Assembly: GCF_030013205.1 (NCBI RefSeq)
Contig: NZ_CP122648.1
Origin: Escherichia coli
GTDB lineage: Bacteria > Pseudomonadota > Gammaproteobacteria > Enterobacterales > Enterobacteriaceae
Strand: one strand, 5' to 3'
Length of the DNA stretch: 64,000 bases
The notes under the pieces were generated by a model that was not told the DNA's origin, made no database searches, and saw nothing but the letters and a program-made list of their open reading frames with translations. Shown here one piece after another: positions 5,298-33,574 of the stretch. The translations under genes and the position numbers were made by a program. Position 1 is the stretch's first letter. Every line of letters begins with the position of its first letter.

Positions 5298-5317
5298 AAA
5301 ATCCTTGTTGATGAAAA
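5298..5317. repeat. attL core: left copy of 20-bp direct repeat AAAATCCTTGTTGATGAAAA (native pdxB start GTG-AAA-ATC-CTT-GTT-GAT-GAA)
   Basis: Exact 20-bp repeat also at 32441..32460; the left copy is preceded by GTG and continues the pdxB N-terminal codons (V)KILVDE before diverging into phage DNA. Confidence 0.7.
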
Positions 5318-6356: not shown

Positions 6357-6360
6357 TTTG

Positions 6361-8880: not shown

Positions 8881-9990
8881 TCACTCTGTTTCTGCTATCC
8901 ATTCCGGGATTTTTGCCTCAAGCTCAAGCTGTGTGGTAAAGCCGCTGTTATCAATGGTGTGCTCGGCTTTCGCAATAATCCAGTCCTGATTATCAATCTC
9001 GCTTTTAAATCCTGTTACCGTGCCATGCATTTCGGGGTAGAGTTCTGCACGTCCACGCACCAGCGTGATGGAAAACGATGCGGCTCCGCGTTGTAGCTGC
9101 TGCCACTTTGCCGCCGCTGCGCGTCTTGCTGCCTGCTCGTTCTGATAAGTCTTGCGTAACACAAACACATTGCCTTCCGCGCCTTCCATATAATCACCTT
9201 CACGGCTGCTGCTTTTCTCCTTTTTGGGTTTTGGCGGTTTGCGGCGTTTCACGCTGACTTTTTTCTTTTTCCCGTAATTAAGATCAAGCCAGTAAGCGCG
9301 TACCCCCGTATACGCCTCGCGGTCAGCAATGCGGAACTGATGGCGATCGCCGCTGCTGCGTGTGATGGCGAACGATGGCAACGGCTGGCCCTGTGCGTTC
9401 ACGCCACCGCCGGGCATGATGAATAACAGATTACCGCTTTTTACCGTGGTGATTGCGCCCAGCATTTCCGCCATGCGCGTAAGGAAGGACATGTCGCTTT
9501 CTTCAGTCTGGTCGGCGTGGTCGATTTCGATATCCATCAGCATTTCGCTGATTTGCGGTTTCAGGCCGTACCGATGAGCGATGGCGGATACCACACGTTC
9601 AACGGTCACATCATGCCAGGACGCCTCACGTTTAACATTAAATTCATCCCGAAAATCTGCGCTTCTGGCTGAAACAGTCAGCCTGTCCGGCGGTCCTTCG
9701 TGAGCGATTTCATCAATAATGTAAGTGCCTTTTTCTGTCAGCGGTTCCCCTTTCCAGCCAATGAGAACCGTCAGACGCGCGCCCCGTGGCGGTAGCTGCA
9801 ACTGGCCATCGGCATCATCCAGCGTGATGGTGAGCTGGTCCGCCTCAAATCCCCGGTTGTCGGTCAGTGACAGGCTCATCAGGCGTTCTGCCACGCCGGA
9901 CAGCGTTTTACCCTCGGCGAGAATATCAAAATCCGGCATTTTCACGGGGTCTGTGCCCTGACTGAGCAATTGCATGGTGGTGTCGGTCAT
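8881..9990 (-). CDS. P2 gpD-like tail protein (late control gene D family)
   Basis: ORF 8881..10122; likely true start is ATG at 9990, preceded by GGGAGGG (MTDTTMQLLSQGTDPVK...); Lys-rich central stretch and overall gpD-like size. Confidence 0.75.
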   Translation of the reverse strand: MTDTTMQLLSQGTDPVKMPDFDILAEGKTLSGVAERLMSLSLTDNRGFEADQLTITLDDADGQLQLPPRGARLTVLIGWKGEPLTEKGTYIIDEIAHEGPPDRLTVSARSADFRDEFNVKREASWHDVTVERVVSAIAHRYGLKPQISEMLMDIEIDHADQTEESDMSFLTRMAEMLGAITTVKSGNLLFIMPGGGVNAQGQPLPSFAITRSSGDRHQFRIADREAYTGVRAYWLDLNYGKKKKVSVKRRKPPKPKKEKSSSREGDYMEGAEGNVFVLRKTYQNEQAARRAAAAKWQQLQRGAASFSITLVRGRAELYPEMHGTVTGFKSEIDNQDWIIAKAEHTIDNSGFTTQLELEAKIPEWIAETE

Positions 9991-10147
9991 CTGTTCCCTC
10001 CCTGTGCGGCATGGTCGCATGTGCGTGCGGAGGGGGTTACTGCTTTTTGTTGTCGCCGTGGCGGGAGAATAGCGCAGGGGTGAGATTACGCGCGTGGTGG
10101 GTGATGATTGTTGCTGAATCATTTAACGGATACAAGGGGCTGAAGCT

Positions 10148-11332
10148 ATGAGTGAAACTCGTTTTCATGGTGCCCGTGTTACGGAAAATACCGACCTGGT
10201 AACAGCGATTAACGATGTTGATTCCAGCGTTATCGGTATCGTGGCAACGGCGGATGATGCGGACGCGAAGCTGTTCCCGCTGAACAAGCCCACATTGCTG
10301 ACCCGCGTCAATGACGTGCTGGGAAAATGCGGAACAACGGGGACGCTTTATCGTGCGCTTAAGGCCATCGCAGACCAGGTGAGCACAAAGGTGATCGTCG
10401 TTCGCGTGGCTGAACACAAAGAAGAAGACGGAAAGACGCAGGATCAACTGGTTATCGGTGGTTCTGAGGATGACGGCAGCTATACGGGGATGTATGCGCT
10501 GCTTGTTGCAGAGCAGGATGAAAGCATCGGATACCGTCCGCGTATTCTGGCCGCGCCGGAGCTGGACACGGAGGCTGTAACAAAATCCCTGTGCGTGATT
10601 GCAGGTAAACTGCGCGCGTTTGTGTATGCCTCATGTCACGGCTGTAACACGATGGCTGAGGCGATTACCTACCGCCAGAAATTCAACGAACGTGAGGTGA
10701 TGCTCTTATGGCCGGACTTCATCGCCTACAACCCGAAAAGTGGCAAAAACGAAACGTTCCCCGCGCCTGCCTATGCGTGCGGCCTTCGTGCGTACATTGA
10801 CCATGAGCAGGGCTGGCACAAATCGCTGTCCAACGTTCCGGTTAAAAATGTGCTGGGGATGTCCAGGCATGTGTTCTGGTCGTTGCAGGCCGAAGACAGT
10901 GATGCCAACAGCCTCAACAACAAAGAAATCACGACCATTATTCGTCGCAACGGGTTCCGCTTCTGGGGCAACCGCACACCGGAAACGAACGCCTACATCT
11001 TTGAGGTGTATACCCGAACCGCACAGGTGCTGGCTGATTCAATTGCGGAAGCGCAGTTTGAAACCATCGACAGTCCACTGACGCCTGCGAACGTGAAAGA
11101 TGTTATCAGTGCCATCAGGGCAAAACTGGATTCACTGGTTACTGCCGGGAAACTGATTGGGGCGTCGTGCTGGTATGACGTGGTGGATAACGGCACCACG
11201 AATTTACGTCAGGGGCGCGTGCGTATTCGCTACAAATATACGCCTGTTCCCCCGCTGGAAGACATGGAGCTTTACCAGTCGTTTACTGATGAATTCTTTG
11301 GTCCCGCATTTGCGGTGCTGGGAGGTGCCTGA
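10148..11332 (+). CDS. Contractile tail sheath protein (P2 gpFI-like)
   Basis: 394 aa; aligns by eye with P2 FI (FPLNKP, CxKLRAF, IRRxGFRFWGNRT, YxYTPVPPLE motifs). Confidence 0.9.
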   Translation: MSETRFHGARVTENTDLVTAINDVDSSVIGIVATADDADAKLFPLNKPTLLTRVNDVLGKCGTTGTLYRALKAIADQVSTKVIVVRVAEHKEEDGKTQDQLVIGGSEDDGSYTGMYALLVAEQDESIGYRPRILAAPELDTEAVTKSLCVIAGKLRAFVYASCHGCNTMAEAITYRQKFNEREVMLLWPDFIAYNPKSGKNETFPAPAYACGLRAYIDHEQGWHKSLSNVPVKNVLGMSRHVFWSLQAEDSDANSLNNKEITTIIRRNGFRFWGNRTPETNAYIFEVYTRTAQVLADSIAEAQFETIDSPLTPANVKDVISAIRAKLDSLVTAGKLIGASCWYDVVDNGTTNLRQGRVRIRYKYTPVPPLEDMELYQSFTDEFFGPAFAVLGGA

Positions 11333-11844
11333 TGGCTGTACCAAAACATCTTCGCTTTTTTACGCTGTTTGTGGATGGTGAAAACGAAGTGGGTAAGGTG
11401 ACGTCCGTCACTCTGCCTAAGCTGACGCGCAAAACCGACAGCTACCGGGGTGGTGGCATGATGGGTGCGGTAAGTATTGATCTCGGTCTGGACGACTCCG
11501 CGCTTGATGCGAGCTTTGTCATGGGGGGCGCAGTTCGTGAGCTGTTCCTTAAGTATGGCGGCACGATTGACGGCACGCTGCTGCGTTTTGCGGGTGAATA
11601 CTACACCGATGCAGAAAGCGACCTGTATGAAGTCGAAATGCGCGGACGTGTGACGGAAATTGATATGGGGGAAGCCAAACAGGGCGAAGCCACATCACAC
11701 ACTTACGCCATTAAAAACACCTACTACAAGCTGAGTGTTAACGATCGCCCGTTGTGGGAGATTGACCTGCTGAACTTCATTTACCGGAAGGACGGCAAGG
11801 ACATTGTGCCCGATCGCATCCGTTCCGCGCTCGGGCTTGGCTGA
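11332..11844 (+). CDS. Tail tube protein (P2 gpFII-like)
   Basis: 170 aa, immediately after the sheath gene with overlapping stop/start (ATGA). Confidence 0.85.
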   Translation: MAVPKHLRFFTLFVDGENEVGKVTSVTLPKLTRKTDSYRGGGMMGAVSIDLGLDDSALDASFVMGGAVRELFLKYGGTIDGTLLRFAGEYYTDAESDLYEVEMRGRVTEIDMGEAKQGEATSHTYAIKNTYYKLSVNDRPLWEIDLLNFIYRKDGKDIVPDRIRSALGLG

Positions 11845-11899
11845 TAAGTAATATGCAGGCGGCGCAGTGCGTCGCCTCTGACTGAAAAGGAGACAACTG

Positions 11900-12274
11900 A
11901 TGAAAGACATCGATACTGAAACCCGGAATAACACCGTGGCGGATGATGTGACGGCAGGTGAGGATATGGCTGTCGAACATGGCGTAAAACTGACCCGACC
12001 AATTGAGCGTGGTGGCGAAAAAATCACGTATGTGGAGATCACCGGGGCTATTGAACAGGCTGGATCCCTGCGTGGTCTGTCGCTGTCTGATGTGCTGAAT
12101 CTGAAAGCGGATACCATGTTCACGCTGTTGCCTCGCGTGACCTCGCCACGACTGGATGAAGTGATGATTAAAAAAATGTCGTCACGCGATTTTATTCAGT
12201 TGTGCGCTGTGGCTGTAAATTTTATGAGCGAGCCAGACTCTGGCGCGAAGAGCGTGCAGGAGACGGCAGCGTAA
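11900..12274 (+). CDS. Tail assembly chaperone (P2 gpE-like)
   Basis: 124-aa ORF between tube and tape-measure genes, with an overlapping -1 frame ORF (E'). Confidence 0.75.
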   Translation: MKDIDTETRNNTVADDVTAGEDMAVEHGVKLTRPIERGGEKITYVEITGAIEQAGSLRGLSLSDVLNLKADTMFTLLPRVTSPRLDEVMIKKMSSRDFIQLCAVAVNFMSEPDSGAKSVQETAA

Positions 12275-12438
12275 TCACCCTGGTGTGCTTTGAGCACATC
12301 GAAGATCTGGTGGCAGATATCGCCGCCATTTTTAACTGGTCGCCCGCCGAAATCTTCATGATGACGCCCGGCGAAGTGGTTAGCTGGCGTGAGCGGGCGG
12401 CACTTCGCAGCGGGAATGCAGACAATGAAGACTCTTGA
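12202..12438 (+). CDS. E' extension, -1 frame of the tail chaperone (predicted E+E' frameshift product)
   Basis: ORF in the -1 frame overlapping the 3' end of E; candidate slippery heptamer A-AAT-TTT at 12217..12223 in the E frame. Confidence 0.5.
   Translation: MRCGCKFYERARLWREERAGDGSVITLVCFEHIEDLVADIAAIFNWSPAEIFMMTPGEVVSWRERAALRSGNADNEDS
12217..12223 (+). promoter_or_regulatory. Candidate programmed -1 ribosomal frameshift site (AAATTTT)
   Basis: XXXYYYZ heptamer inside the E/E' overlap, in the correct phase for E to E' slippage. Confidence 0.4.
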
Positions 12439-15232
12439 CATCCGGGTCGCTTTCAGCGCCGTTGACAGGCTGACCCGGCCTGCCGAAAACGCCCGCCGCC
12501 TGATGGGGCAGTTTGGTGACTCCATCCAGCGAACGCAGGGGGCGATCAAAAATCTCGAGCGTCAGGCGCGTTCATTTGAGCGCGCCCGTGACGCTGTCAG
12601 TAAAGCGGATGCTGGCATATTGAAAGCACGACGCCAGCTTAACGCCCTTAATCAGTTACAACGCACGGGTACAGTGCTCAGCGAAAAACAACAAAAGCTG
12701 ATGCAGCAGTTAAGCACCCGGCTTGAACGCCTGAATGAATCGCGCACACGGGAAATTCAGAAAATGCGGGAGCTTGGCGGAGAGCTGAAACGCCACGGCA
12801 TTTCCCTGACAGGCAGCGATAACACCATCCAGCAGGCCATCAGACGCACCGAACAGTACAACAACCAGCTTGAACGCGAACGGCAGGCGCTTGCGCGTGT
12901 AACACGGGCGCGTGAGCGGTATTCGCGCGCGCAGGAAACAGCGGGAAAACTGAAAACAGGTGGTGCGCTGGCAATTGGTGCGGCAACGGCGGGCGGCTAT
13001 GCTGCCGGGCGTTTTTTGCAGCCTGCGATCGGGTTCGGCAAAGAGATGTCCCGCGTTCAGGCACTGACGCGAATCGACAAAAACAGCCCGCAGTTTAAGG
13101 CGCTGCGTGAGCAGGCGTTAAAACTTGGCTCTGAAACACAGTTTACTGCGAGTGATGCCGCCAGTGGGCAGAGCTTTCTGGCAATGGCTGGTTTTACTCC
13201 GCAGGCCATTCAGGCCGCATTGCCCGGTGTTCTTAATATGGCGCTGGCAGGTGGCGTCGAACTCGGCGAGACGGCTGATATAGGCTCCAATATCCTCACA
13301 CAGTTCAACCTGACAGCCGATCAAATGGACCGTGTTGGCGATACGCTGACAGCAGCATTCACCCGGACCAATACTGATTTACGCGCGCTGGGCGAAACCA
13401 TGAAGTATACCGGTCCGGTTGCCGCAAAACTTGGTATCAGTCTTGAAGAAGCGGCGGCCATGGCCGGGATGCTTGCCAATAATGGTCTTCGCGGAAGCGA
13501 TGCTGGTACGGCCATGCGCGCAAGTCTGTCCCGCCTTGCATCACCGCCAAAAGCTGCGGCTGATGCACTGAAAGAGCTGGGGGTGTCAGTTGCTGACGCC
13601 AGAGGCAAAATGCGCCCGATGGAGGATGTGCTGCTTGATCTCTATAAGGCGACACAAAAATACGGACAGGTGGACCAGGTTTCCTTCTTCAAGGACATCG
13701 CCGGAGAAGAGGCGTTCGTTGGTTTGCAGACGCTTGTTGCGGCGGCTGGTTCAGGAGAGCTGCAAAAACTGACCAGAGAATTGCAGGGGGCAAGGGGAGA
13801 GGCCGATCGCGTCGCAAAAGTAATGGCCGATAATCTTGATGGGGACCTGAAAAATCTCGACAGCGCATGGGAAGGTCTTCGTATTCGCATCAGTGATCTG
13901 GTTGACGGTCCGCTGCGTTCTGTCACGCAGTGGCTCACGCGGGTGCTTGAAAAAATCACCTCGCTGGCGCAGGCCCATCCGGTACTGACGCGCCAGCTAC
14001 TGATAGCAGGCGGTGCGTTGCTGGCAATGACTGCAACGATTGGCTCGTTGTCGCTGGTTATTGGGGTGCTTTACGGGAAGCTGGCCACCCTGCGTCTTGG
14101 TTTTGACATTCTTACCCGGTCAATGAATGTCGTCAGGGTGTTGCCTGCGCTGTGGGGAATGGTGACGGGTTCCGTTTCTTTACTGGGAGGCGCCATCGGG
14201 GCGTTGTTCAGTCCGGTTGGTCTTATCGTGGCTGCGCTTGCCGGAGCTGCCGTTCTTATCTGGAAATACTGGGATCCCATCAGGGCATTTTTTGCCGGGG
14301 TGTTCAGCGGGATTATGGAAAGGCTGACCCCGTTGCGCGAAACCTTTGAACGGTTTGGTCCTGTTTTTGACACAATCGGAAGCGGGATCAGCCAGGTGTT
14401 TAACTGGTTTAAATCGCTGCTGTCACCGATGGAGTCCAGCAAGGAAACGCTGGATAAATGTACCAGTGCTGGCGAGATATTCGGTAACGTTCTTGGCGGT
14501 GCGTTACAGCTTGTTCTGACACCTGCAAAAATGCTACTGGATACGCTGGCGTGGATACTTGAAAAACTTGGCGTCCTTCCGGATGAAGCGGAAAGGGCGC
14601 GCAAGAAAATCGAAGACGCACAGCGTGCGGCCATTCTTCAGGACAAGGTTGTCTTGCTTCAGGGTGACCTGGCGAAAATCAATCCGCCGAAGCCTGTGGA
14701 AAATGGCAATGGCACCGGAGGTAATAAACCCAAAGACAACAAACCGCTCACAGACAGCAATACCGGGACGCTACGCAGACTCAGCAAAATTGCTGATAAC
14801 ACAGGTAAGCTGGTTGATGAGACGAAAAAACGCATTGGCCCCGGCGATATTGTCTTTAAGAACCTGCCCCGCGCACTTGCTGTTCGTGGAGAGTGGCAGG
14901 AGCGGAAGATTGCGCAGGTCAGTAAGCCTGCCCCCGCAATTAATATCACACCCGTGGTCCCGGCTCCGCTGCCTCCGGCGCTGGTCCCTGTTGTTGCGGC
15001 CAGCTCCCGCCCGGTGGCGGAGGCCATACGATCTCCAGTGGCATCAGTTCCTGTAACTTCCCGTAACCGGGAGCCTGTTGCCTCCGGATTTGGTGGTGAA
15101 ATTCATGTTCATCTGCATAACGTTGTTACGCAGAATCCCCGCGAACTGGCGAAACTGGTCGGTGAAATGGTCAGGGCAGAAATGGAACGGCGCGCCCGTG
15201 CCGGGCGTGGCAGTTTTTACGATAAAGATTGA
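12389..15232 (+). CDS. Tail tape measure protein (P2 gpT-like)
   Basis: 947 aa, long coiled-coil-rich N-terminus and C-terminal hydrophobic segments, position after E/E'; true start probably a downstream Met (12416 or 12425). Confidence 0.85.
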   Translation: MSGRHFAAGMQTMKTLDIRVAFSAVDRLTRPAENARRLMGQFGDSIQRTQGAIKNLERQARSFERARDAVSKADAGILKARRQLNALNQLQRTGTVLSEKQQKLMQQLSTRLERLNESRTREIQKMRELGGELKRHGISLTGSDNTIQQAIRRTEQYNNQLERERQALARVTRARERYSRAQETAGKLKTGGALAIGAATAGGYAAGRFLQPAIGFGKEMSRVQALTRIDKNSPQFKALREQALKLGSETQFTASDAASGQSFLAMAGFTPQAIQAALPGVLNMALAGGVELGETADIGSNILTQFNLTADQMDRVGDTLTAAFTRTNTDLRALGETMKYTGPVAAKLGISLEEAAAMAGMLANNGLRGSDAGTAMRASLSRLASPPKAAADALKELGVSVADARGKMRPMEDVLLDLYKATQKYGQVDQVSFFKDIAGEEAFVGLQTLVAAAGSGELQKLTRELQGARGEADRVAKVMADNLDGDLKNLDSAWEGLRIRISDLVDGPLRSVTQWLTRVLEKITSLAQAHPVLTRQLLIAGGALLAMTATIGSLSLVIGVLYGKLATLRLGFDILTRSMNVVRVLPALWGMVTGSVSLLGGAIGALFSPVGLIVAALAGAAVLIWKYWDPIRAFFAGVFSGIMERLTPLRETFERFGPVFDTIGSGISQVFNWFKSLLSPMESSKETLDKCTSAGEIFGNVLGGALQLVLTPAKMLLDTLAWILEKLGVLPDEAERARKKIEDAQRAAILQDKVVLLQGDLAKINPPKPVENGNGTGGNKPKDNKPLTDSNTGTLRRLSKIADNTGKLVDETKKRIGPGDIVFKNLPRALAVRGEWQERKIAQVSKPAPAINITPVVPAPLPPALVPVVAASSRPVAEAIRSPVASVPVTSRNREPVASGFGGEIHVHLHNVVTQNPRELAKLVGEMVRAEMERRARAGRGSFYDKD

Positions 15233-15238
15233 GGAGTC

Positions 15239-15733
15239 ATGGCCATGATGATGATCTACGGCATGTTTGTTTTTGAGCTGCGCACGCTGCCGCATCAGCA
15301 GTTACAGCAAAACAAAAGCTGGCGGCATGTGAAAAATGAACGCGTTAACCGTTCAGCAAGCTGGCAGTATATCGGTGCAGGTGATGATCGCATCGTTCTT
15401 TCTGGTGTGCTTTATCCTGAAATTACAGGTGGCGAAGTGTCGCTGTCGCTGCTGACCACGCAGGCGTATACAGGACGCCCCTGGCCTCTTATTGATGGCG
15501 TCGGGCAGATTTACGGCATGTATGTCCTGACCGAAACGAATACGACCCGTTCCGAGTTTGATCGCTACGGTAAGGCGAAAAAGATAGAATTTTCACTGAC
15601 CCTTGAACGCTGTGATGAGGATTTGCGGGAGCGCCTGCAATCCTCATCGTTCAGCGATATGCTGTCCGGCTTCAAAGATAAAGTGACATCATCCCTTAAC
15701 AGCGCGGCCAGTTCAGTTAAAGGGCTGTTCTGA
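15239..15733 (+). CDS. Tail protein (P2 gpU-like)
   Basis: 164 aa MAMMMIYGMFVFELRTLPHQ...; N-terminal similarity to P2 U; directly follows the tape measure gene. Confidence 0.75.
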   Translation: MAMMMIYGMFVFELRTLPHQQLQQNKSWRHVKNERVNRSASWQYIGAGDDRIVLSGVLYPEITGGEVSLSLLTTQAYTGRPWPLIDGVGQIYGMYVLTETNTTRSEFDRYGKAKKIEFSLTLERCDEDLRERLQSSSFSDMLSGFKDKVTSSLNSAASSVKGLF

Positions 15734-15903: not shown

Positions 15904-16467
15904 ATGCTGAATAATAGAGATATGAATATTAATGAACTTAAAGATTGTATTCACTATGAAGTAATCGGTAGCGAGCGTCCTTTCTCCTGGCGAAAGGCAA
16001 TTGTTCGCGCAATAAAACATAGAAGAGTTCGTTATTTATTTTGGTGGCGCATAGCCAAATACCTTTTTGATAAAGGCGGATACTGTCGGAAGATTGCGGG
16101 GAAAATAGAACGTTTCATTCTTGATAAATATAATGTAACAGTCCCTTTAACTGTAAATATAGGGAAAGGCTTTGATATTTCTTATCTCAACAGTGTTGTT
16201 ATCGGTCACAAAGTAACAATCGGTGAAAATTGTTCAATAAAACCAGGGGTAACTATTGGGCTGCGTGGTGATTTTAATGATATGGATATTGTTATAGGAC
16301 ATAATGTGACCATTGGTTGTAATGCCACCATTCTTGGTGGCAAAGTGCGTATAGGAAACAATGTCACAATAGGTGCTCATGCATTGGTATTGCATGATAT
16401 TCCAGATGATTCAACATTCATCACTAAATTTCAGTCTGAAGTTATCTGCTCGTCCTCCCGCACATAA
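15904..16467 (+). CDS. Hexapeptide-repeat (left-handed beta-helix) acyl/acetyltransferase, cargo at the Z/fun position
   Basis: 187 aa with tandem [LIV]-G-x-x-x-x hexapeptide repeats ([22 protein letters not shown]...[16 protein letters not shown]...); AT-rich; convergent with and overlapping the 3' end of the tail-fibre assembly gene. Confidence 0.7.
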
Positions 16468-17048
16468 CCCTGATTCATCAGCTCTGGCCATACGATATCC
16501 GGAGCTGTACTGGTGTCAATTCTACTCACTAATACTCTGTATTTTCTCCAGGAATCCAGTTGTGAATTTTCCTCGTTTGTTGCTATTTCAAGATTAACTG
16601 CATCCTGCAGAATTGCGATGTTATCTGTTGCTTCCTGGATCAACCTTGCCTTTTTCTCTTCCGCTTCCCGTATCCGAAACAGTTTTTCTGCTTCCTCATC
16701 CTTCACCCAGGATACGCCGTCCCACTTCTGATACTCCCCTGCTGGCGACAACCAGGTGACATTCTCTGGTAGCGGTCCGGGTTCAGAAATAAACAACGCG
16801 TCCCCCGATGCCACGTCATAGACCGTTTTACCACGATGGTCTTCAACAATATTCCACGATTCATTTTCACTGTTAAAAACTGCCACAAAGCCAGCAGGAA
16901 TTTCCGGTGGGGCGATATCTGTAGAATTGGCTGGCAGCCCTGTATGAGGTGGAATATATGCGTCACCTTCACCAATAAACTCATTAGTTCCGGCCAGCAG
17001 GTTATAAATTTTTACAGTACGTGATTGTTCACTCATTCTGAATGCCAT
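16431..17048 (-). CDS. Tail fibre assembly protein (P2 gpG / Tfa family)
   Basis: 205 aa; typical Tfa N-terminal region; start overlaps the stop of the upstream tail-fibre fragment (TAATG). Confidence 0.8.
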
Positions 17049-17395
17049 TATGCAAGCCTCACAATATAATTAAATGCGATGTTTTTAACGGTGTTTTCCG
17101 CGTTACCAGCAGCGTTAACGGTGATGGTGTGTCCATGTGAACCAATCGCAACAGAGTGCGTATGAGCGCCAATAGCTGATTGAGTGTGACGCCATACGCC
17201 CCACGGACCATCAGTGCCATTCCACTTATTGGCGAGTTTACGCATGTATACATTGCCGTCTCTCGTGATAAAACGTTGCGTGCCTGCAAAATTGCCAGCT
17301 GCAAAAACCTCAAGCACACCGACAGCATTATCTTCCGGGAAATTTTTCTCCAGTGTTGCGTTGGTGGATGTTGCTTTAGACCAGATGCCAGTGCA
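17048..17395 (-). pseudogene. Tail fibre gene (H-like), 3' fragment only
   Basis: Open frame from the stop at 17396..17398 to 17048 encodes ...[40 protein letters not shown], a typical tail-fibre C-terminus; no N-terminal part; fused out of frame to the truncated capsid gene. Confidence 0.7.
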
Positions 17396-18033
17396 TCAGC
17401 GTTCGCATACTTACCCGCGTGCGCCACGGTGTTGTCCATGTTACGGGAGGTCAGCGTCACGTCATTCATAACGCGTTCGCTGGCGTCGGTTCTGATGTGC
17501 TCCAGCCACCCCACGTTAACGTCCTGAAGCAACTTGTTGGTGCTGAAGTTGGACTCATCCGCGTGAGACGTGCCGTTGAAACCGATCATGATTCGGTCAA
17601 GCGCCACCTGTCGGGCAATCTGTGCGCTGATGCGGGACTGAAAATCGCTGTGTGCCGACCAGGCATCAAGCTGCGGATACGAAATAAACGTGTCGTAGTT
17701 CACCTGTTCGCACTGGTATTTGCGGTTTTTCAGATCAACCACGTTATTCGGGTTACGGCGTTTTGTTCCGTCATAACTGGTATTCGTGCGCGCAATCGGT
17801 CCTGTGGTATCCAGGAGGATTTTTTCGCCCTTCTGGTCGGTCACGCCGATCACGTTAATTCTTTTTGTAAATTCGGTGCTTTCCTTTGAGGCGTTTTCAA
17901 AACGCTGCTGTACCGAGGGTTCCACGGTAAATCGCGATACCAGTGCGGAAACCGGGATATTGTTAAGCGACGCCTGCTGCGCCATATAGCAACCCAGCTT
18001 GTTGCGGGTAATATCTGACATCACCAGATTCAT
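17381..18033 (-). pseudogene. Major capsid protein gene (P2 gpN-like), truncated after ~217 codons
   Basis: N-terminal 217 aa align with P2 N (FTVEPSV, GEKI, KYxCxQ, IMxGFNG, LQDVxVGWL, RVM); after ADALAS the frame runs into tail-fibre DNA and yields low-complexity sequence. Confidence 0.75.
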
Positions 18034-19047: not shown

Positions 19048-20799
19048 ATGATTCAGGACGCTTTTGTGCGCCAGCGTGCGCGACAACTTTACTGGCAGGG
19101 TTATCCGCCCGCAGAAATATCACGTCTGATGGGAATAAACCCGAACACGATTTATGCGTGGAAAAAACGCGACCAGTGGGATGAAACGCCACCCGTGCAG
19201 CGTGTCACGCAGTCCATCGATGCGCGCCTCATCCAGCTTACTGAAAAACAGAATAAAACAGGCGGTGACTTTAAGGAAATAGACCTGCTGACCCGGCAGC
19301 TTAAAAAACTGCATGATGGCCAGCCGGATGTGACGGCCACAGGAAAGAAAGGCCGGGCGAAAAAACTCAAAAATCATTTCACGCCGGAACAGATTGCCGC
19401 ACTGCGGGAAAAAATCATCAGCAGGCTGGAGTGGCATCAGCGGGGCTGGTTTGACTCCCTGACCCTTTGCAGGGAAGCCGGGATACGTAACAGGATGATC
19501 CTGAAATCCCGACAGATTGGGGCGACCTGGTATTTTGCACAGGAAGCACTGCTGATGGCGCTGCGTGACGATGTGGCGCAACCTTACCAGCGTAACCAGA
19601 TTTTTTTGTCTGCGTCGCGTCGTCAGGCGTTCCAGTTTAAAAGCATTATTCAGAAGGCCGCGGCTGAAGTTGATGTGGAGCTGAAAGGGGGCGATAAAAT
19701 CATCCTCTCCAACGGCGCAGAGCTGCATTTTCTCGGCACTTCTGCTGCGTCGGCACAGTCCTATACGGGCAATTTTTATTTTGATGAATTCTTCTGGGTC
19801 AGTCGCTTTGCTGAACTGCGCAAGGTGGCTGGCGCTATGGCAACCCTCAGCGGACTGCGGCGCACCTACTTCTCCACGCCATCCACCGAAACGCACGAGG
19901 CATACGCCTACTGGAACGGCGACCGCTGGAACGAGAAAAAGGCCACGCATAAACGCCAGCGTTTTTCTGTGGACTGGAAAACGCTGCATAACGGGCTTAT
20001 CTGCCCTGACCGGACGTGGCGGCAAATTGTCACGCTGGAAGATGTGGTTAATCACGGCTGGAAACACACCGATATTGACGAAATCCGTGATGAAAACACC
20101 GAAGACGAGTTCCTCAATCTCTATATGTGTGAGTTTGTTCGCGAAGGGGAATCGGCATTTAACCTGAATATCCTGATTGGCTGCGGTGTTGACGGATACG
20201 ACGACTGGAAAGACTGGAAACCTTTTGCTCCCCGCCCGATGGGGAATCGTCCGGTATGGATTGGGTATGACGCAAACGGCAGCAGTGGCAACGGCGACAG
20301 CGGCGCTGTGTCCGTGGTGGTTCCTCCGGCTGTTCCTGGTGGCCGTTTTCGAACGGTGGAGACGCGACGCGTTCAGGGGCTGGAGTTTGAAGAACAGGCC
20401 AGAGTCATTGAAGAGTTCACGTATCGCTACAACGTGGAACACATCGGCATTGATGTGACGGGCGGGAACGGGGAGGCTGTTTATCAGATAGTGAAACGGT
20501 TTTTCCCTGCTGCTATTCCGTACACCTTCACGCTGTCATCAAAACGGTCGCTGGTACTGAAAATGCTGCAAATAATGCGTGCCGGGCGGTGGGAATACGA
20601 TCGCGCCGAACGCGAGCTGGTCGCGGCCTTTAACGCCGTGCGTAAGGTGAAAACACCGGGCGGCTTTATCACTTACGAAACGGACCGCGCGAGGGGGATC
20701 AGCCACGGCGACCTTGCGTGGGCAACCATGCTTGCTGTCATTAACGAACCGATTGGCGGCGAAGGAGAAAACGAGCGTTTCACGGTTATGGAGTTCTGA
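19048..20799 (+). CDS. Terminase large (ATPase) subunit (P2 gpP-like)
   Basis: 583 aa with N-terminal HTH-like region and nuclease-like C-terminus; size and position as P2 P. Confidence 0.85.
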   Translation: MIQDAFVRQRARQLYWQGYPPAEISRLMGINPNTIYAWKKRDQWDETPPVQRVTQSIDARLIQLTEKQNKTGGDFKEIDLLTRQLKKLHDGQPDVTATGKKGRAKKLKNHFTPEQIAALREKIISRLEWHQRGWFDSLTLCREAGIRNRMILKSRQIGATWYFAQEALLMALRDDVAQPYQRNQIFLSASRRQAFQFKSIIQKAAAEVDVELKGGDKIILSNGAELHFLGTSAASAQSYTGNFYFDEFFWVSRFAELRKVAGAMATLSGLRRTYFSTPSTETHEAYAYWNGDRWNEKKATHKRQRFSVDWKTLHNGLICPDRTWRQIVTLEDVVNHGWKHTDIDEIRDENTEDEFLNLYMCEFVREGESAFNLNILIGCGVDGYDDWKDWKPFAPRPMGNRPVWIGYDANGSSGNGDSGAVSVVVPPAVPGGRFRTVETRRVQGLEFEEQARVIEEFTYRYNVEHIGIDVTGGNGEAVYQIVKRFFPAAIPYTFTLSSKRSLVLKMLQIMRAGRWEYDRAERELVAAFNAVRKVKTPGGFITYETDRARGISHGDLAWATMLAVINEPIGGEGENERFTVMEF

Positions 20800-21845
20800 T
20801 GAGCAGAAAAAATAAAAAAGTGCGCATGAGTTCACGCATTGATCTCGCTGATGCGCTCAGGAAAGAATCATCGCTCAGTGCATTCACATTTGATGGTCCT
20901 TATCGCCTGACCGGGCATGACCTGCTGGACAATATGTACTGTGCTGATAACGGGCGGTGGTATGAAACCCCGGTGGACTGGTACGGTCTGGCAAGAGCAG
21001 CCCGGCAAACGTCCTGGCATCAGTCTGCGCTTTACTTTAAGCGCAATGTATTACTCGGTTGCTACATCCCGCACCCGCTGCTTTCCCGGCAGGATTTCTC
21101 GGCGCTGGCGCTGGACTGGTTTGTGTTCGGTAACGCATTCCTTGAGCTTCGAAGCAATATGCTCGGCGAACCGCTTAAATTACGGCACGCACTGGCGAAA
21201 TACATGCGACGCGGAAGCGATCTTGAATCATGGTGGTATGTGCAGGATGGCAAGGACGCGTTCCAGTTTCGCCCTGGCAAAGTGTGCCACCTGATGAATC
21301 CGGACATTAACCAGGAAATTTACGGCATGCCGGAATATCTTGGCGCATTACTCTCGGCAAGCCTGTCTCATTCGGCGGACATGTTCAGAAAACTGTATTA
21401 CGACAATGGATCCCACGCCGGGTGCATTATCTACATCGGTGCAGCGCAGGTAAACCGCGAAAGCATGGACTCCCTGAAAGAAACGCTACAGGGTGCGCGT
21501 GGTGGTGGTGCGTTTAAAAACGTGCTCATTCATGCGCCCAACGGGGGCAAAGAGGGGGTGCAAATTTTGCCGTTCCAGCAGATCACCGCAAAGGATGAGT
21601 TCATGAATGTTAAGGCGGCATCCCGTGATGATGTGCTGGCTGCGCACCGCGTTCCGCCGCAACTGATGGGGGCGATGCCGGGTGAAAAAAGTGCGTTTGG
21701 TGATGTGGAGAAGGCCGCGCGGGTTTACGCAATTAACGAGCTGATGCCCGTCATGGAGGCCATGAAGCACATCAATGACTGGCTTGGCGAAGAGGTGATC
21801 CGCTTTAACCCTTACGCACTGTTAGACACCCAGCCCACATCCTGA
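20799..21845 (+). CDS. Portal protein (P2 gpQ-like)
   Basis: 348 aa immediately after the terminase gene (ATGA overlap); P2 portal is ~344 aa. Confidence 0.8.
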   Translation: MSRKNKKVRMSSRIDLADALRKESSLSAFTFDGPYRLTGHDLLDNMYCADNGRWYETPVDWYGLARAARQTSWHQSALYFKRNVLLGCYIPHPLLSRQDFSALALDWFVFGNAFLELRSNMLGEPLKLRHALAKYMRRGSDLESWWYVQDGKDAFQFRPGKVCHLMNPDINQEIYGMPEYLGALLSASLSHSADMFRKLYYDNGSHAGCIIYIGAAQVNRESMDSLKETLQGARGGGAFKNVLIHAPNGGKEGVQILPFQQITAKDEFMNVKAASRDDVLAAHRVPPQLMGAMPGEKSAFGDVEKAARVYAINELMPVMEAMKHINDWLGEEVIRFNPYALLDTQPTS

Positions 21846-21861
21846 CGCGCTTCGCTTGTCT

Positions 21862-21906
21862 GCTGCTTCGCCGGGGCATAAAAAATTTATGCCCCGGCGA
21901 AGCAGC
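21862..21906. terminator. Long GC-rich perfect hairpin after the portal gene (bidirectional terminator; cos region lies beyond)
   Basis: gctgcttcgccggggcataaa / tttatgccccggcgaagcagc inverted repeat. Confidence 0.6.
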
Positions 21907-22332
21907 TCCTGTATCAGTCAGATAATTTCACGACGCTTTCCTGCTTATTGCCATCATCGACGGTCAGACTCTTACGCAATCCCACCGCGTTGACTGCATG
22001 TTCTTCGACGCCTCAGTGCGATTTTGACGGCCTTACCTTTCACCCCATCAAATTAGAATCCCTCACGTCTTTTTCACACTCAGCGTGAGAAATACAGCCA
22101 TTCTGTTGTGTTGCTGCGACATCGTTCAGGGGATGCTATTTACCCCCTGAAACGCGGGCTGTTCCCCCGTCACCTGCGCGCAGAAAAAACGCGTTTTTTT
22201 GTGCACGTACGGATCCTTGACGGATCCAGCCACCACGCGGGCCGGAAGTACAAAAAGTCGTTCAAAAAAATTGTGCAAACTTGTGCACTATCGTGCAAAC
22301 AAAAAAAGCGCCTTATCGGCGCTTCAAAAGTA

Positions 22333-22602
22333 TCAATTGTTGCTGTGTATTAATCGCCAACCACGAACATATGCTTCATAGGCATCTCTGTGCCTTACAG
22401 TTCCAGCCTGGCTAAACGGAATGTTAGCTAAAACTAAATCATTCTGAGCCATAGCGCGTCCTTCAAGCGCATCTTTTATGCCTAGCTCAAAAGCACAGGC
22501 AGCGCATTTGTGCCGACCTTCTTGTCCTTGATATTCAGGGAGAGACAGAAATGTTGGATTATAACGATGAGGGTTCTTGCAAATACCTGTTTTAGCCCGC
22601 AC
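22333..22602 (-). CDS. Hypothetical small protein, Cys/His-containing
   Basis: 89-aa ORF between the cos region and parR; no clear family assignment from sequence. Confidence 0.4.
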   Translation of the reverse strand: MRAKTGICKNPHRYNPTFLSLPEYQGQEGRHKCAACAFELGIKDALEGRAMAQNDLVLANIPFSQAGTVRHRDAYEAYVRGWRLIHSNN

Positions 22603-22732
22603 TTTATTTACCTCATAGGAAAAATATGCGTGCCTTTACAGAGGTGCGTGTAAGCAATAAAATATACGACGCACATTTTGATTTACTTCGGAAGGCACGC
22701 ATATCAGGTTAAGTGAGTCCGACCGAGTTTTA

Positions 22733-22765
22733 CGCCCCAATAGTTGCTGCTATTGGGGCGTTTTG
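22733..22765 (+). terminator. Intrinsic terminator hairpin plus U-tract on the plus strand, ending a structured region
   Basis: cgccccaatagttgctgctattggggcg followed by ttttg; a long-range complementary pair tatgcgtgcctt / aaggcacgcata lies upstream at 22615..22693. Confidence 0.45.
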
Positions 22766-22966
22766 CATGGACAATGCCGCGCAATTATCTTGTCGCTCAC
22801 AATGCGAACGATCTTACAAAAAGGCACATTACTGTCAAGATAATTGATCGTTTTAATCGATAGATAATAGACAATCTATTTGTTTAACAGATCGATTATT
22901 GAAGTAAGTGTGCCAAGTGGAATGATACTGTCTCTATAAACGTGAGCATTTTTCGCGCAGATGCTT

Positions 22967-23278
22967 TTACTCAGGAAATAACGCCCGGATATTCCCAGCC
23001 ATCTGGCTGGTTATCTTAGCCACTGGTGCAGACTGTGCTTCAAACTTTTTTGAGCTGATTTGTGTCACAGGTAACATCTCATCATCAGCCCATGCGGCCA
23101 GTCGGTAAGCCTCTGCCGGATTCGTCTTCAGAAGTGCCAGCCCGGCCAGAAAAGCCACGCGTTGGCCGCTTTTGCGGGCTTCTGGTGTAAGGCTGTCCAG
23201 CCAGGCGCATGCTTCTCCTTCGTTCTTGACGGCAGCTGGCTTCAGATAGAAACTTATCCGTCTGGTTGGTGTTGTCAT
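22967..23278 (-). CDS. parR: ParR-like centromere-binding adaptor
   Basis: 103 aa from the ATG at 23278, preceded by AGGAG 7 nt upstream and only 4 nt after the parM stop; resembles R1 ParR (RRISFYLKP...LDSLTPEARKSGQRVAFLAGLALL). The longer annotated ORF 22967..23413 overlaps parM and is rejected. Confidence 0.7.
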   Translation of the reverse strand: MTTPTRRISFYLKPAAVKNEGEACAWLDSLTPEARKSGQRVAFLAGLALLKTNPAEAYRLAAWADDEMLPVTQISSKKFEAQSAPVAKITSQMAGNIRALFPE

Positions 23279-23282: not shown

Positions 23283-24242
23283 TTACTCCTTGTCCATTGC
23301 GTACAGCCCATTAACCAGAGCAAACTGTGGCACCCCGTCCGCGATGAAAGTCGCATTAACTCCGCAGGCTTCGCGGATAGCGGGTGCCACAATCTCCGCC
23401 CCGCCACCGACAACCATCACCCGCCCGTAACCCGAAAAACCCGCCAGCGCGCGGATCACGCGTTGTTTCAGTGTTTCTTCCTTTTCACGAATAACCGCCA
23501 TCAGGCTGGCGTAATGCGCGTCATTGTGGATGTGCTGGCGCAGCCAGGCTTCATCATGGCGATGTTCGATAATGGTATTGGCGATGTGGTGACTGGTACG
23601 CATACCGTTAGTGGCCATCACCGACAGTACGGCATCGGCCATCAGGGAAACGCCTACGTGTGGATCGCAAAACACCTGGCTGATACCTGCCAGTTGTCCC
23701 TGAACCTTTGCCACATCCAGCGTGGTTCCGCCTAAATCCACAATCAGCAGGGATTCAAACGGACTCATGTCAGCCAGTGCTTTAAAGCCAGCCGGAATGG
23801 ATTCAGGCATAACCCGTACGTTACGGATAGTGAATGCTTCGCCGTTCTGGTACTCCACCGGGCGCATGACGTTCGCTTTTTTGCGGTTGATGTTGGCCAT
23901 GTCCGGCTGTGCGTTTGTGTCGAAATATTCGCTCAGTGGCAGGGTGACAACCACATCCACTTCCTGTGGTGTGATGCCTGATTTGACCAGCGCGTGATGA
24001 ATGGCAATGACATTCACATCGCTGTACTGGTATTGCGTGTCGGTCGTCTGGACAAAGCGATCGCTGACCGGATCAAAACCATAGCGCACGCCATCAAGCA
24101 TGTAGTTCGCGGGCTGCGTGCCACCGAACGGCGCAGACCATTCCGACTTGAAGCTGTTCGGGCTGATGGCGTTGCGGCGTTCGCCGTTCTCAGTCCATGC
24201 CAGCTTGATGTTGGTGGAGCCGTCATCGATACAAATTTTCAT
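23283..24242 (-). CDS. parM: ParM/StbA-family actin-like segregation ATPase
   Basis: 319 aa MKICIDDGSTNIKLAW...SPNSF...VMPESIPAG...LIVDLGGTTLD...VMVVGGGAE; close to plasmid R1 ParM along the whole length. Confidence 0.85.
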   Translation of the reverse strand: MKICIDDGSTNIKLAWTENGERRNAISPNSFKSEWSAPFGGTQPANYMLDGVRYGFDPVSDRFVQTTDTQYQYSDVNVIAIHHALVKSGITPQEVDVVVTLPLSEYFDTNAQPDMANINRKKANVMRPVEYQNGEAFTIRNVRVMPESIPAGFKALADMSPFESLLIVDLGGTTLDVAKVQGQLAGISQVFCDPHVGVSLMADAVLSVMATNGMRTSHHIANTIIEHRHDEAWLRQHIHNDAHYASLMAVIREKEETLKQRVIRALAGFSGYGRVMVVGGGAEIVAPAIREACGVNATFIADGVPQFALVNGLYAMDKE

Positions 24243-27513: not shown

Positions 27514-27585
27514 TGCGGCAATCCTCTTGTTACAGATGTGCGAAGGCCTCCCGCCGCAAGGTGCAGGAAAGGCCCGGAACAGGAA

Positions 27586-27816
27586 TTAATGGAGTTTGTT
27601 TTGCTGCTGGATGAGCTGTTGAAGCTCGTGCAGATCATCCGCCAGATAGCTGAAAACAGAGGCGGAATAAATGTTTGATAGTGCGTGGCTGCGCTCATGC
27701 AACATATTGATGTGCATGATTTGCGCGACGCGTGATGCGCGGGAAAGTCTGCGGTTGATTTCAGTCTGGATGTGACGACGCTCCGCGATAGCGCGGTGTG
27801 GTTTGCGGTTTGCCAT
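27586..27816 (-). CDS. Early-region hypothetical small basic protein
   Basis: 76-aa ORF with an AAGGGG Shine-Dalgarno upstream. Confidence 0.45.
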   Translation of the reverse strand: MANRKPHRAIAERRHIQTEINRRLSRASRVAQIMHINMLHERSHALSNIYSASVFSYLADDLHELQQLIQQQNKLH

Positions 27817-32416: not shown

Positions 32417-33574
32417 TTGTCAGAGACTGAAAAAGGGTTAAAAATCCTTGTTGATGAAAATATGCCTTATGCCCGCGACTTATTTAGCCGTTTGGGTGAG
32501 GTGACCGCGGTTCCCGGGCGTCCAATCCCCGTGGCTCAACTGGCAGACGCGGATGCGCTGATGGTGCGTTCGGTCACGAAAGTGAATGAATCTTTGCTGG
32601 CAGGAAAACCCATTAAATTTGTTGGCACTGCCACCGCGGGGACCGACCATGTCGATGAAGCGTGGTTAAAGCAGGCGGGAATTGGTTTTTCCGCGGCACC
32701 AGGCTGTAATGCGATTGCGGTGGTGGAATATGTTTTCTCCTCACTGCTGATGCTTGCCGAACGCGATGGATTTTCACTGCGCGAGCGTACCGTGGGGATC
32801 GTGGGCGTTGGTAACGTTGGTCGGCGTTTACAGGCACGACTGGAAGCGTTAGGGATTAAAACCTTACTTTGCGATCCGCCTCGCGCCGACCGTGGGGATG
32901 AGGGTGATTTCCGCTCGCTGGATGAATTAGTTCAGCATGCGGATATTCTGACTTTCCATACGCCACTCTTTAAAGATGGTCCGTACAAAACGCTACATCT
33001 GGCGGATGAAAAACTGATCCGTAGCCTGAAGCCCGGAGCGATTCTGATTAACGCCTGCCGTGGCGCAGTCGTCGATAATACTGCCCTATTGACCTGTCTG
33101 AACGAAGGCCAGAAGTTAAGCGTAGTGCTGGATGTCTGGGAAGGCGAACCGGAACTCAACGTGGAATTGCTGAAAAAAGTGGATATCGGCACGCCGCATA
33201 TCGCAGGCTATACCCTGGAAGGTAAAGCACGCGGTACTACGCAAGTGTTTGAAGCCTATAGCAAGTTTATTGGGCATGAACAACACGTTGCGCTGGATAC
33301 GTTGCTGCCCGCGCCAGAGTTTGGCCGCATTACGCTGCATGGTCCGCTCGATCAACCGACGCTGAAAAGGCTGGTGCATTTGGTGTATGATGTGCGCCGC
33401 GATGACGCACCGCTGCGTAAAGTCGCCGGAATACCGGGTGAGTTCGATAAGCTGCGCAAAAACTATCTTGAGCGCCGTGAATGGTCATCTCTGTATGTGA
33501 TTTGTGATGACGCCAGTGCGGCATCATTGCTGTGTAAACTGGGTTTTAACGCCGTTCATCATCCGGCACGTTAA
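32417..33574 (+). CDS. pdxB: Erythronate-4-phosphate dehydrogenase with phage-supplied 5' end
   Basis: Body matches PdxB ([15 protein letters not shown]...); here the reading frame starts at TTG 32417 behind an AAAGGAG Shine-Dalgarno in phage DNA, giving MSETEKGL + KILVDEN... Confidence 0.85.
32441..32460. repeat. attR core: right copy of the 20-bp direct repeat, inside the pdxB 5' coding region
   Basis: AAAATCCTTGTTGATGAAAA identical to 5298..5317. Confidence 0.7.

What the first reader, a model, noticed from the sequence alone, without database searches (positions are those of the whole stretch)
17048..18033. Large internal deletion fusing the major capsid gene to the 3' end of a tail-fibre gene
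The N-like capsid ORF matches P2 N for ~217 residues and then, near 17330-17400, continues out of frame into DNA encoding a typical tail-fibre C-terminus, followed by the tail-fibre assembly gene. Homologues of M, L, X, the lysis genes, R, S, V, W, J, I and most of H are absent. The prophage therefore cannot form particles or lyse on its own, yet it retains integrase, the C/cox switch, A, terminase, portal, sheath, tube and tape measure, and its cargo.
Basis: seen in the sequence. Interest (0 to 1): 0.45.

Follow-up and report, generated by a model that had tools for sequence, protein, structure and literature searches.

The report
Defective P2-like prophage, capsid–fibre deletion scar
A P2-like prophage in a pig E. 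coli clone has lost about 9 kb of head, lysis, baseplate and tail-fibre genes, leaving a dead capsid/tail-fibre fusion; this is ordinary prophage decay, with one odd detail in how the scar was made.

Summary
On the minus strand, the first 215 codons of a P2-family major capsid gene (18033 to 17388) run out of frame into tail-fibre DNA, followed by an intact tail-fibre assembly gene.

Alignment to intact relatives, including one at the same chromosomal site with the same cargo, shows two junctions rather than one:
- **J2 (17388-17390, microhomology CCA):** removes 7,529 bp, comprising fibre codons 1-257, I, J, W, V, S, R, the lysis genes, X, L, M and capsid codons 216-350.
- **J1 (17173-17174, microhomology TA):** removes a further 1,545 bp inside the fibre gene, in that gene's reading frame.

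Between them sits a 218-bp island of the fibre gene. Both junctions occur together in the same 7 of 5,426 complete E. coli genomes, all from pigs. RefSeq already marks the pieces as pseudogenes. No intermediate with only one junction was found.

All other prophage genes checked are full length. A near-identical strain has the attachment site empty.

One unexpected point concerns a second, older P2-like remnant in the same genomes. It ends its fibre gene at the nucleotide where the island begins, so J1 probably involved inter-prophage recombination.

Verdict: a correctly read, unremarkable defective prophage. Interest is low.

The parts
5298..5317 (.). attL copy of the 20-bp attachment core AAAATCCTTGTTGATGAAAA (left end of the prophage)
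   Evidence: It is an exact direct repeat of 32441-32460. A near-identical strain, ETEC6333, has one copy at an empty flk/pdxB site.
32441..32460 (.). attR copy of the attachment core, overlapping codons 2-7 of pdxB (right end of the prophage)
15904..16467 (+). Hexapeptide-repeat acetyltransferase cargo gene between U and the fibre assembly gene, intact
   Evidence: It is 100% identical to the gene in intact relatives. Its NCBIfam matches are to serine and sugar O-acetyltransferases, all below their cut-offs.
16431..17048 (-). Tail-fibre assembly (chaperone) gene, intact, 205 aa
   Evidence: It matches phrog_105 at E=7e-94 and is 100% identical to the gene in intact relatives.
17048..17174 (-). 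Last 41 codons plus the stop of fibre gene H (aa 845-885 of the 885-aa parent)
   Evidence: PGAP annotates it as 'phage tail protein, missing N-terminus'.
17173..17174 (.). Junction J1: the 2-bp microhomology TA, marking a 1,545-bp (515-codon) loss inside H that keeps the H reading frame
   Evidence: It is present in only 7 of 5,426 genomes.
17173..17390 (-). 218-bp island of H (aa 258-329, part of a 'pyocin knob' repeat), 100% identical to the parent type
   Evidence: PGAP annotates it as 'pyocin knob domain-containing protein, missing N- and C-terminus'.
17388..17390 (.). Junction J2: the 3-bp microhomology CCA, marking a 7,529-bp deletion running from within H (5' end), through I, J, W, V, S, R, lysC, lysB, K, Y, X, L and M, into the 3' end of N
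   Evidence: It is present in only the same 7 genomes.
17388..18033 (-). 5' 646 nt (215 codons) of the P2-family major capsid gene N
17059..18033 (-). Fused open reading frame of 324 aa: capsid aa 1-215 followed by 109 out-of-frame codons
18057..18926 (-). Capsid scaffold/protease gene O, intact
   Evidence: 278 of 278 aa aligned, 98.6% identical.
19048..21845 (+). Terminase large subunit P and portal Q, both intact
8881..15733 (.). Retained tail genes D (minus strand) and FI, FII, E/E', T, U (plus strand), all full length

Best explanation
This is the scar of gene loss in a P2-like (Peduoviridae) prophage integrated in the 5' end of pdxB.

**Shown.**
- The ancestor was a roughly 36-kb phage with the usual order U, acetyltransferase, tfa, H, I, J, W, V, S, R, lysis, X, L, M, N, O, P, Q.
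- Two breaks were healed by illegitimate joining at 2-3 bp of microhomology, removing 7,529 bp and 1,545 bp.
- What remains of the region is capsid codons 1-215, a 218-bp piece of the fibre gene and the last 41 fibre codons.

**Inferred.**
- The capsid fragment lacks the C-terminal 40% of the protein and runs into a wrong frame, so it should make no usable protein. Expression was not tested.
- With no capsid, small terminase, head completion, holin/endolysin/spanin, tail completion, baseplate or fibre, the element cannot build particles or lyse the cell.
- Because the integrase, Cox, repressor, replication gene A and partition genes are intact, it may still excise and replicate.
- The loss is recent. 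All remaining genes checked are full length. All 7 carriers are 100% identical in every stretch compared (400 bp, 2.4 kb and 4 kb), and one of them matches the window at all but 3 positions in 37.6 kb. A strain with essentially identical flanks has the site empty.
- Selection against the lysis cassette is the likely reason such deletions persist. Four independent deletions in related prophages all remove it.
- J1 was probably not a free-standing random deletion. Its right edge coincides with the truncation point of the fibre gene in a second, older P2-like remnant in the same genomes. This points to recombination between the two elements, with a break at the edge of their shared homology. I put this last step at about 50%.
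For: - **Collinear alignment to three intact relatives gives identical breakpoints.** The deletion sizes agree in the two relatives that share this fibre type; the third matches at the same window coordinates on both sides.
- **Junction sequences** show TA and CCA microhomology and no longer repeat.
- **An intact same-site, same-cargo counterpart** exists in RIVM_C040348.
- **Protein matches** for the fragments are.
- **The missing genes are absent** from the window.
- **The retained genes are full length**.
- **Both junctions occur in the same 7 genomes** and nowhere else among 5,426.
- **RefSeq annotates the pieces as pseudogenes**.
- **An empty site exists in a near-identical strain:** ETEC6333 shows 0 mismatches in 5,317 bp of left flank and 1 in 12,939 bp of right flank.
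- **Independent central deletions** occur in related prophages: J joined to O in P15-25, I joined to N in ETEC4079, and H joined to a cargo gene in remnant B.
- **The shared fibre break:** remnant B ends at parent coordinate 23721 and the island starts at 23719. Among 311 genomes holding this stretch, these are the only truncations seen at that point. B's junction is in 14 genomes, which include all 7 carriers.
Against: - Nothing contradicts the deletion or the loss of function.
- The order of J1 and J2 is unknown, and no one-junction intermediate was found.
- The link between J1 and remnant B rests on a coincidence of position and lineage. I could not derive a specific recombination pathway that yields exactly these products. 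After allowing for the several breakpoints compared, chance is unlikely but not excluded.
- Expression of the fused ORF, excision and replication were not tested.
- The whole genomes could not be scanned gene by gene, so a divergent helper phage elsewhere is not excluded.
Confidence: 0.9

Rival explanations
1. The two junctions arose in one complex event. For example, replication template switching (microhomology-mediated break-induced replication) could have copied a short 218-nt stretch of H between the two deletion endpoints, rather than two successive deletions occurring.
For: - Both joints use very short microhomology (2 and 3 bp), and a short island sits in its native orientation between them.
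- No genome among 5,426 has only one of the two junctions.
Against: - The absence of intermediates is weak evidence, because all 7 carriers belong to one clone.
- Two ordinary deletions give the same product.
- This reading does not by itself explain why the island starts where remnant B ends.
Confidence: 0.3
2. J1 is a natural, functional short fibre variant (371 aa) that existed in the infecting phage. Only J2 is decay.
For: - J1 removes exactly 515 codons and keeps the H reading frame.
- Its left edge falls at the start of the 41-aa C-terminal module that is shared by about 3,800 E. coli genomes.
- An unrelated lambdoid remnant joins the same module at the same nucleotide.
Against: - The J1 joint is found in no other complete E. 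coli genome.
- None of the phage records matching this region carries it; the one that spans the fibre end aligns in two separated pieces.
- The position of its right edge is not a natural mosaic boundary: 291 of the 311 genomes holding that stretch cover it almost in full.
- An in-frame outcome has a one in three chance anyway.
Confidence: 0.12
3. The junction is an assembly collapse or a chimera of two prophages made by the assembler.
For: Several related P2-like elements with more than 99% identical 4.5-kb stretches exist in the same genome, which is a situation that can confuse assemblers.
Against: - Identical junctions appear in 7 complete genomes from different laboratories and countries.
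- The joints lie in unique sequence with only 2-3 bp shared.
- Both flanks are collinear with a single prophage bounded by its own att repeats.
Confidence: 0.01
4. The element is a domesticated or satellite-like unit kept for function. It might be retained for its cargo or defence genes, or be mobilised by a helper P2-like phage through its retained packaging region, integrase and replication genes.
For: - All non-deleted genes checked are full length, including int, cox, A, parM and the cargo.
- The Q-proximal non-coding region shared by P2-like relatives is kept.
- A close relative has the site empty, which is compatible with excision.
- Defective P2-like prophages can still be excised and packaged in E. 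coli O157 (PMC2669165).
- Defective P2 elements with conserved defence genes have been reported (bioRxiv 10.64898/2026.02.27.708500).
Against: - Intactness is equally expected from a very recent deletion.
- The cos site itself was not identified.
- The other two P2-like elements found in these genomes are also defective.
- No PADLOC defence family matched the cargo.
Confidence: 0.15

Closest known systems
Intact P2-like (Peduoviridae) prophages of E. coli. The closest named phage is Escherichia phage 500465-2 (Gemsvirus). The closest intact same-site prophage is in strain RIVM_C040348.
   Same: - Gene order, attachment site, cargo (TagO-like, zinc ribbon, hok, ogr, 340-aa protein), Cox and repressor (identical protein accessions) and an integrase of the same type all match.
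- DNA identity is 94.6-98.5% along both arms.
   Different: The window element lacks 9,074 bp between capsid codon 215 and the last 41 fibre codons, apart from a 218-bp island. It also carries an extra segment of about 0.8 kb with C4 and isrK RNAs in the early region.
Sp13, the defective P2-like prophage of E. coli O157 Sakai (PMC2669165)
   Same: It is a P2-like prophage that has lost most morphogenetic genes, is judged unable to propagate alone, and retains its regulatory genes.
   Different: Sp13 lacks more, including the packaging genes. Its excision and packaging were shown by experiment; nothing of the kind has been tested here.
Other decayed P2-like elements in the same pig E. coli clade: remnant B at ihfA/btuC, and the serS/dmsA element in P15-25 and ETEC4079
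   Same: Each has a central deletion that removes the lysis cassette and the neighbouring head and tail genes, while the ends of the prophage are kept.
   Different: Each has its own breakpoints. B also carries IS66 and IS2 damage. B's fibre truncation point matches the start of the window's fibre island.

Membership tests
P2-like (Peduoviridae) prophage | Collinear P2 gene order (ogr, D, FI, FII, E, T, U ... N, O, P, Q ... A ... cox, C, int) and DNA homology to known members | tested here: met
   Both arms align collinearly at 94.6-98.5% to Peduoviridae records and to intact prophages.
P2-like (Peduoviridae) prophage | Integration by a tyrosine integrase, with a duplicated att core flanking the element | tested here: met
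   There is a 20-bp direct repeat at 5298 and 32441, and a single copy at the empty site in ETEC6333. An integrase ORF of 339 aa is present.
Functional (particle-forming, lytic) P2-like prophage | Complete P2-family major capsid protein (TIGR01551 above its cut-off) | tested here: not met
   The score is 137 bits against a cut-off of 219.65, and only profile positions 8-204 of 326 are matched. An intact relative scores 255 bits.
Functional (particle-forming, lytic) P2-like prophage | Presence of small terminase M, head completion L, the lysis cassette (Y, K, lysB/C), tail completion R and S, baseplate V, W, J and I, and a full-length fibre H | tested here: not met
   None of these has a tblastn or blastn match in the window apart from the H and N remnants. 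All are present between the breakpoints in intact relatives.
Microhomology-mediated (illegitimate) deletion | Junctions with only a few shared bases, and no IS element or long repeat at the endpoints in the parent sequence | tested here: met
   The shared bases are TA (2 bp) and CCA (3 bp), and the parent flanks are otherwise unrelated. No significant repeats were found.
Invertase (Gin/Cin/Pin-type) rearrangement of a fibre gene | 26-bp crossover sites with an AAACC-NN-GGTTT core at the junctions, and an adjacent invertase gene | tested here: not met
   The junction sequences were inspected by eye against crossover-site sequences recalled from memory, and no such core was seen. This module carries an acetyltransferase where 500465-2 has an invertase.
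R-type tailocin (phage-tail-like bacteriocin) | Sheath, tube, baseplate, fibre and a lysis cassette, without head genes | tested here: not met
   The baseplate, fibre and lysis genes are the ones deleted. The head genes O, P and Q are retained.
P4-like satellite | P4 hallmark genes (alpha primase, sid, psu, delta, epsilon) | not tested
   No dedicated search was made. The element's gene content is that of a P2-like helper-type phage.

The most novel reading that the evidence does not exclude
The compound scar records recombination between two co-resident P2-like elements. One break in the fibre gene is represented by complementary halves at two loci 700 kb apart: remnant B keeps the sequence up to the break, and the window element keeps it from the break onward. 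If so, deletion endpoints in prophage decay can be set by the edges of homology to paralogous prophage remnants rather than falling at random. A weaker variant is that the 27-kb element, which keeps int, cox, A and the packaging region, still moves as a helper-dependent unit. That would explain the empty site in a near-identical strain.
Probability: 0.35. Interest if true: 0.4.

Novelty: already known. Interest (0 to 1): 0.15.

Why it matters
For genome annotation it settles that this locus is a dead prophage. The capsid and fibre pieces are pseudogenes, and prophage-prediction tools that score it as intact would be wrong. For the biology of the pig enterotoxigenic E. coli clone it shows that all the P2-like elements found are defective, so none can act as a helper or lyse the cell. 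More generally, it adds one well-mapped case to the familiar pattern that prophages are disarmed by deletions removing the lysis and morphogenesis block while the regulatory, integration and cargo genes persist. The shared fibre break between two remnants is a small, testable hint that co-resident related prophages shape each other's decay.

Tried and rejected
- **P2 cohesive-end sequence.** I searched for the 19-nt P2 cos sequence, recalled from memory, allowing up to 3 mismatches. There were no matches, so cos retention is only inferred from the conserved 450-bp region next to Q.
- **IS element or long repeat at the junctions.** None was found. An IS with a 3-bp target duplication (TAG) would fit the 3-bp overlap between remnant B and the island. 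However, the sequence abutting B's fibre end is the 3' end of an ordinary cargo gene, not an IS end.
- **Invertase crossover sites at J1.** I found only a partial half-site resemblance, and the joint is not at the expected core. Rejected.
- **Position 23720 as a natural mosaic boundary in fibre genes.** Rejected: 291 of 311 genomes cover the stretch almost in full.
- **A complementary fragment for J2.** None was seen on the fibre side. The capsid side was not searched.
- **Explicit recombination schemes.** I tried reciprocal exchange, circle integration, homology-facilitated illegitimate recombination and gap repair templated on B, looking for one that would produce both J1 and B's junction. 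None reproduces the observed structures without extra ad hoc steps, so the link is reported as an observation only.
- **PADLOC search of the cargo genes.** No defence family matched.
- **Whole-genome check for the missing genes.** This was not possible with the tools. It was approached indirectly through place counts and by inspecting the two other P2-like loci found.

Full report
**What is at the coordinates.**

The minus-strand ORF at 17059-18033 (324 aa) begins as a P2-family major capsid protein.
- Residues 1-215 are 96% identical to the 350-aa capsid protein of an intact relative.
- They align to residues 4-215 of the solved P2 gpN structure, 7jw1.
- They match phrog_70 'major head protein'.
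- They match TIGR01551 only over profile positions 8-204 of 326, well below the curated cut-off: 137 bits against 219.65, where an intact relative scores 255.

Beyond residue 215 the ORF has no capsid similarity. In a different frame, the same DNA encodes tail-fibre sequence. Immediately downstream is a 205-aa tail-fibre assembly gene (16431-17048), identical to that of intact phages.

**Mapping against intact relatives.**

The window is almost identical to E. coli K_EC180, a swine isolate from South Korea (3 differences in 37.6 kb). The element is a P2-like prophage lying between flk and pdxB. I aligned the window to three intact relatives:
- VG38-53E1, locus L004.
- TUM2820, locus L006, at the same site but with a different fibre.
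- RIVM_C040348, locus L009, at the same site with the same cargo. Its Cox and repressor have the same protein accessions, and it has the same fibre type.

Against L004 and L009 the window splits into three collinear blocks (L004 coordinates below):

| Window | L004 | Note |
|---|---|---|
| up to 17174 | up to 22175 | left arm |
| 17173-17390 | 23719-23936 | 100% identical island |
| 17388 onward | 31463 onward | right arm |

So there are two junctions.
- **J2 (17388-17390, shared CCA)** removes 7,529 bp. This covers the first 257 codons of fibre gene H, then I, J, W, V, S, R, lysC, lysB, the endolysin, the holin, X, L, M, and capsid codons 216-350.
- **J1 (17173-17174, shared TA)** removes another 1,545 bp, exactly 515 codons, inside H.

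What is left of H is aa 258-329 plus aa 845-885. The parent sequences share nothing beyond these 2-3 bases at either joint. No longer repeat or IS element is present there. The total loss is 9,074 bp.

**Prophage limits and related strains.**

The prophage is bounded by a 20-bp direct repeat at 5298 and 32441. It now measures about 27.1 kb, against about 35.4 kb for the intact same-site relative. ETEC6333 has this site empty with a single copy of the core. Its flanks are essentially identical to the window, with 0 mismatches in 5,317 bp on the left and 1 in 12,939 bp on the right.

**Is it real, and how widespread?**

Short queries centred on J2 and on J1 each find full-length matches in the same 7 of 5,426 complete E. 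coli genomes: K_EC180 and ETEC1748, 4067, 4069, 4070, 4071 and 4079, all from pigs. The countries recorded for those I inspected are South Korea and Belgium. No genome has one junction without the other. RefSeq annotation already lists the pieces as pseudogenes: capsid 'missing C-terminus', pyocin-knob fragment, and tail protein 'missing N-terminus'. An assembly artefact is excluded for practical purposes.

**What is lost and what is kept.**

None of the deleted genes has any DNA or protein match elsewhere in the 64-kb window. Every retained gene I compared is full length against intact relatives:
- Tail genes D, sheath, tube, E/E', tape measure and U.
- The acetyltransferase and the fibre assembly gene.
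- Head and packaging genes O (scaffold), P (terminase large subunit) and Q (portal).
- The partition genes, replication gene A, Cox, the repressor and the integrase.

The integrase 'frameshift' annotated in K_EC180 is a one-base difference in an A-run, and the window copy is open.

From established P2 genetics (my knowledge), N, M, L, V, W, J, I, H, R and S are needed for virions, and Y and K for lysis. The element therefore cannot make particles or lyse by itself. This is inference, not a test.

**Other P2-like elements in the same genomes.**

Searching with the 1.5-kb segment missing at J1 showed that all 7 carriers hold it elsewhere.
- **Remnant B, between ihfA and btuC (locus L010).** It is a more degraded P2-like remnant. 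It has hok, ogr and a His-Xaa-Ser cargo, an IS66 in D, and a truncated IS2 abutting a truncated tape-measure gene. These are followed by U, the acetyltransferase, tfa and the 3' 1.67 kb of H. H is joined to the 3' end of a cargo gene through 5 bp of microhomology.
- **A third element at serS/dmsA in ETEC4079.** It has H and I, followed by a deletion running into the first 41 capsid codons. ETEC4069 also holds a third copy of the fibre's middle segment, which I did not inspect.
- **A sister of that element in P15-25.** It joins J to a truncated scaffold gene.

None of these supplies J, W, V, S, R, the lysis genes, X, L or M. That makes four independent deletions in related prophages, all removing the lysis block. 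This is the familiar pattern of prophage disarmament: Sp13 of O157 Sakai (PMC2669165) and defective P2 elements (bioRxiv 10.64898/2026.02.27.708500).

**The one unexpected detail.**

Remnant B's fibre gene ends at parent coordinate 23721 (...GGGCGGGTAG). The island in the window starts at 23719 (TAGCTGATT...), so the two overlap by TAG.

This stretch is not a natural mosaic boundary. Of the 311 genomes that hold it, 291 cover it almost fully (at least 80% of the 400-bp query), and the only truncations seen at this point are these two. B's junction is present in 14 genomes, which include all 7 carriers of J1 and J2. It is therefore the older event or a shared one.

Two independent random deletions ending within about 3 bp of each other, in the same small clade, are unlikely. 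I estimate well under 1% from position alone, before correcting for the handful of breakpoints compared.

My preferred reading is that J1 formed during recombination between the two elements, with breakage at the edge of their homology. I could not construct a pathway that gives exactly these products, so I rate this at about 50%. As a weaker observation, the left edge of J1 lies at the start of the 41-aa C-terminal fibre module shared by thousands of E. coli genomes. An unrelated lambdoid remnant joins that module at the same nucleotide.

**Verdict.**

- The scar is compound.
- Only the large terminase subunit survives.
- Mitomycin C is an unsuitable test for a P2-type repressor.

This is a recently disarmed prophage of a well-known kind, already flagged as pseudogenes in RefSeq, so interest is low. 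The shared break with a second remnant is a modest curiosity worth a targeted check.

Noticed in passing
Locus L010 (K_EC180 2.294-2.332 Mb) and locus L005 (ETEC6333): A second, more decayed P2-like remnant lies between ihfA and btuC in all 7 carrier genomes and in 7 others. It carries a His-Xaa-Ser (HxsDBCA) cargo, an IS66 in gene D and a truncated IS2 abutting a truncated tape-measure gene. Its fibre gene is cut at the nucleotide where the window's fibre island begins.
   Followed up: yes
Locus L007 25237-26461 (P15-25) and locus L014 18542-19640 (ETEC4079): A third P2-like element at serS/dmsA carries its own central deletions: J joined to a truncated scaffold gene in P15-25, and I joined to the first 41 capsid codons in ETEC4079. 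Loss of the lysis and morphogenesis block is recurrent in this clade.
   Followed up: partly
Window 27873-28070, minus strand: Rfam finds a C4 antisense RNA (83 bits) and an isrK RNA (64 bits) side by side in the early operon. They lie inside a segment of about 0.8 kb (27629-28423) that is absent from the intact relatives compared. A 205-aa ORF (27510-28127) that PGAP does not call overlaps them. This looks like a P1-type immI (c4-controlled antirepressor) module in a P2-like phage.
   Followed up: partly
Window 7738-8760, plus strand: A 340-aa protein sits in the variable slot between ogr and D. It has only a weak Pfam match to a HEPN domain (RiboL-PSP-HEPN, E=3.7e-4) and no PADLOC or PHROG match. 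It may be an uncharacterised defence or abortive-infection gene.
   Followed up: partly
Window 5463-6702, minus strand: The cargo next to attL is a VasI/TagO-like protein (Pfam VasI, E=1.7e-16) followed by a small zinc-ribbon protein. The same pair is found in phage 500465-2 and in 59 E. coli genomes at this site.
   Followed up: partly
Window 32417-32470 (attR and the pdxB start): Integration replaces the native GTG start codon of pdxB, which remains at attL, with TTA. RefSeq therefore starts pdxB at an internal ATG (370 aa instead of 378). The empty site in ETEC6333 has the full 378-aa gene.
   Followed up: partly
Window 31662-31668: The integrase is open in the window but annotated as frameshifted in K_EC180. 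The cause is a one-base length difference in an A-run, which is either a sequencing error or a slippage-prone tract.
   Followed up: yes
Locus L011 1475-1612 (strain PE15): In a lambdoid prophage remnant, the same 41-codon fibre C-terminal module is joined, in frame, to a truncated TipJ gene at the same nucleotide (after CCAATA, 127 nt from the stop) as junction J1 in the window. Several other genomes give similar partial matches that were not inspected.
   Followed up: partly
Window 21845-22967: A 1.1-kb stretch after the portal gene has no annotated gene. Its first 450-500 bp are conserved among P2-like phages and probably hold the packaging site. The P2 cos 19-mer, recalled from memory, has no match with up to 3 mismatches.
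   Followed up: partly
Window 8881-10122, minus strand: RefSeq annotates gene D as a 266-aa protein in this lineage. The ORF is in fact open for 413 codons and matches the full 369-aa D protein of a relative, so the gene is intact and the annotated start is too far downstream.
   Followed up: yes
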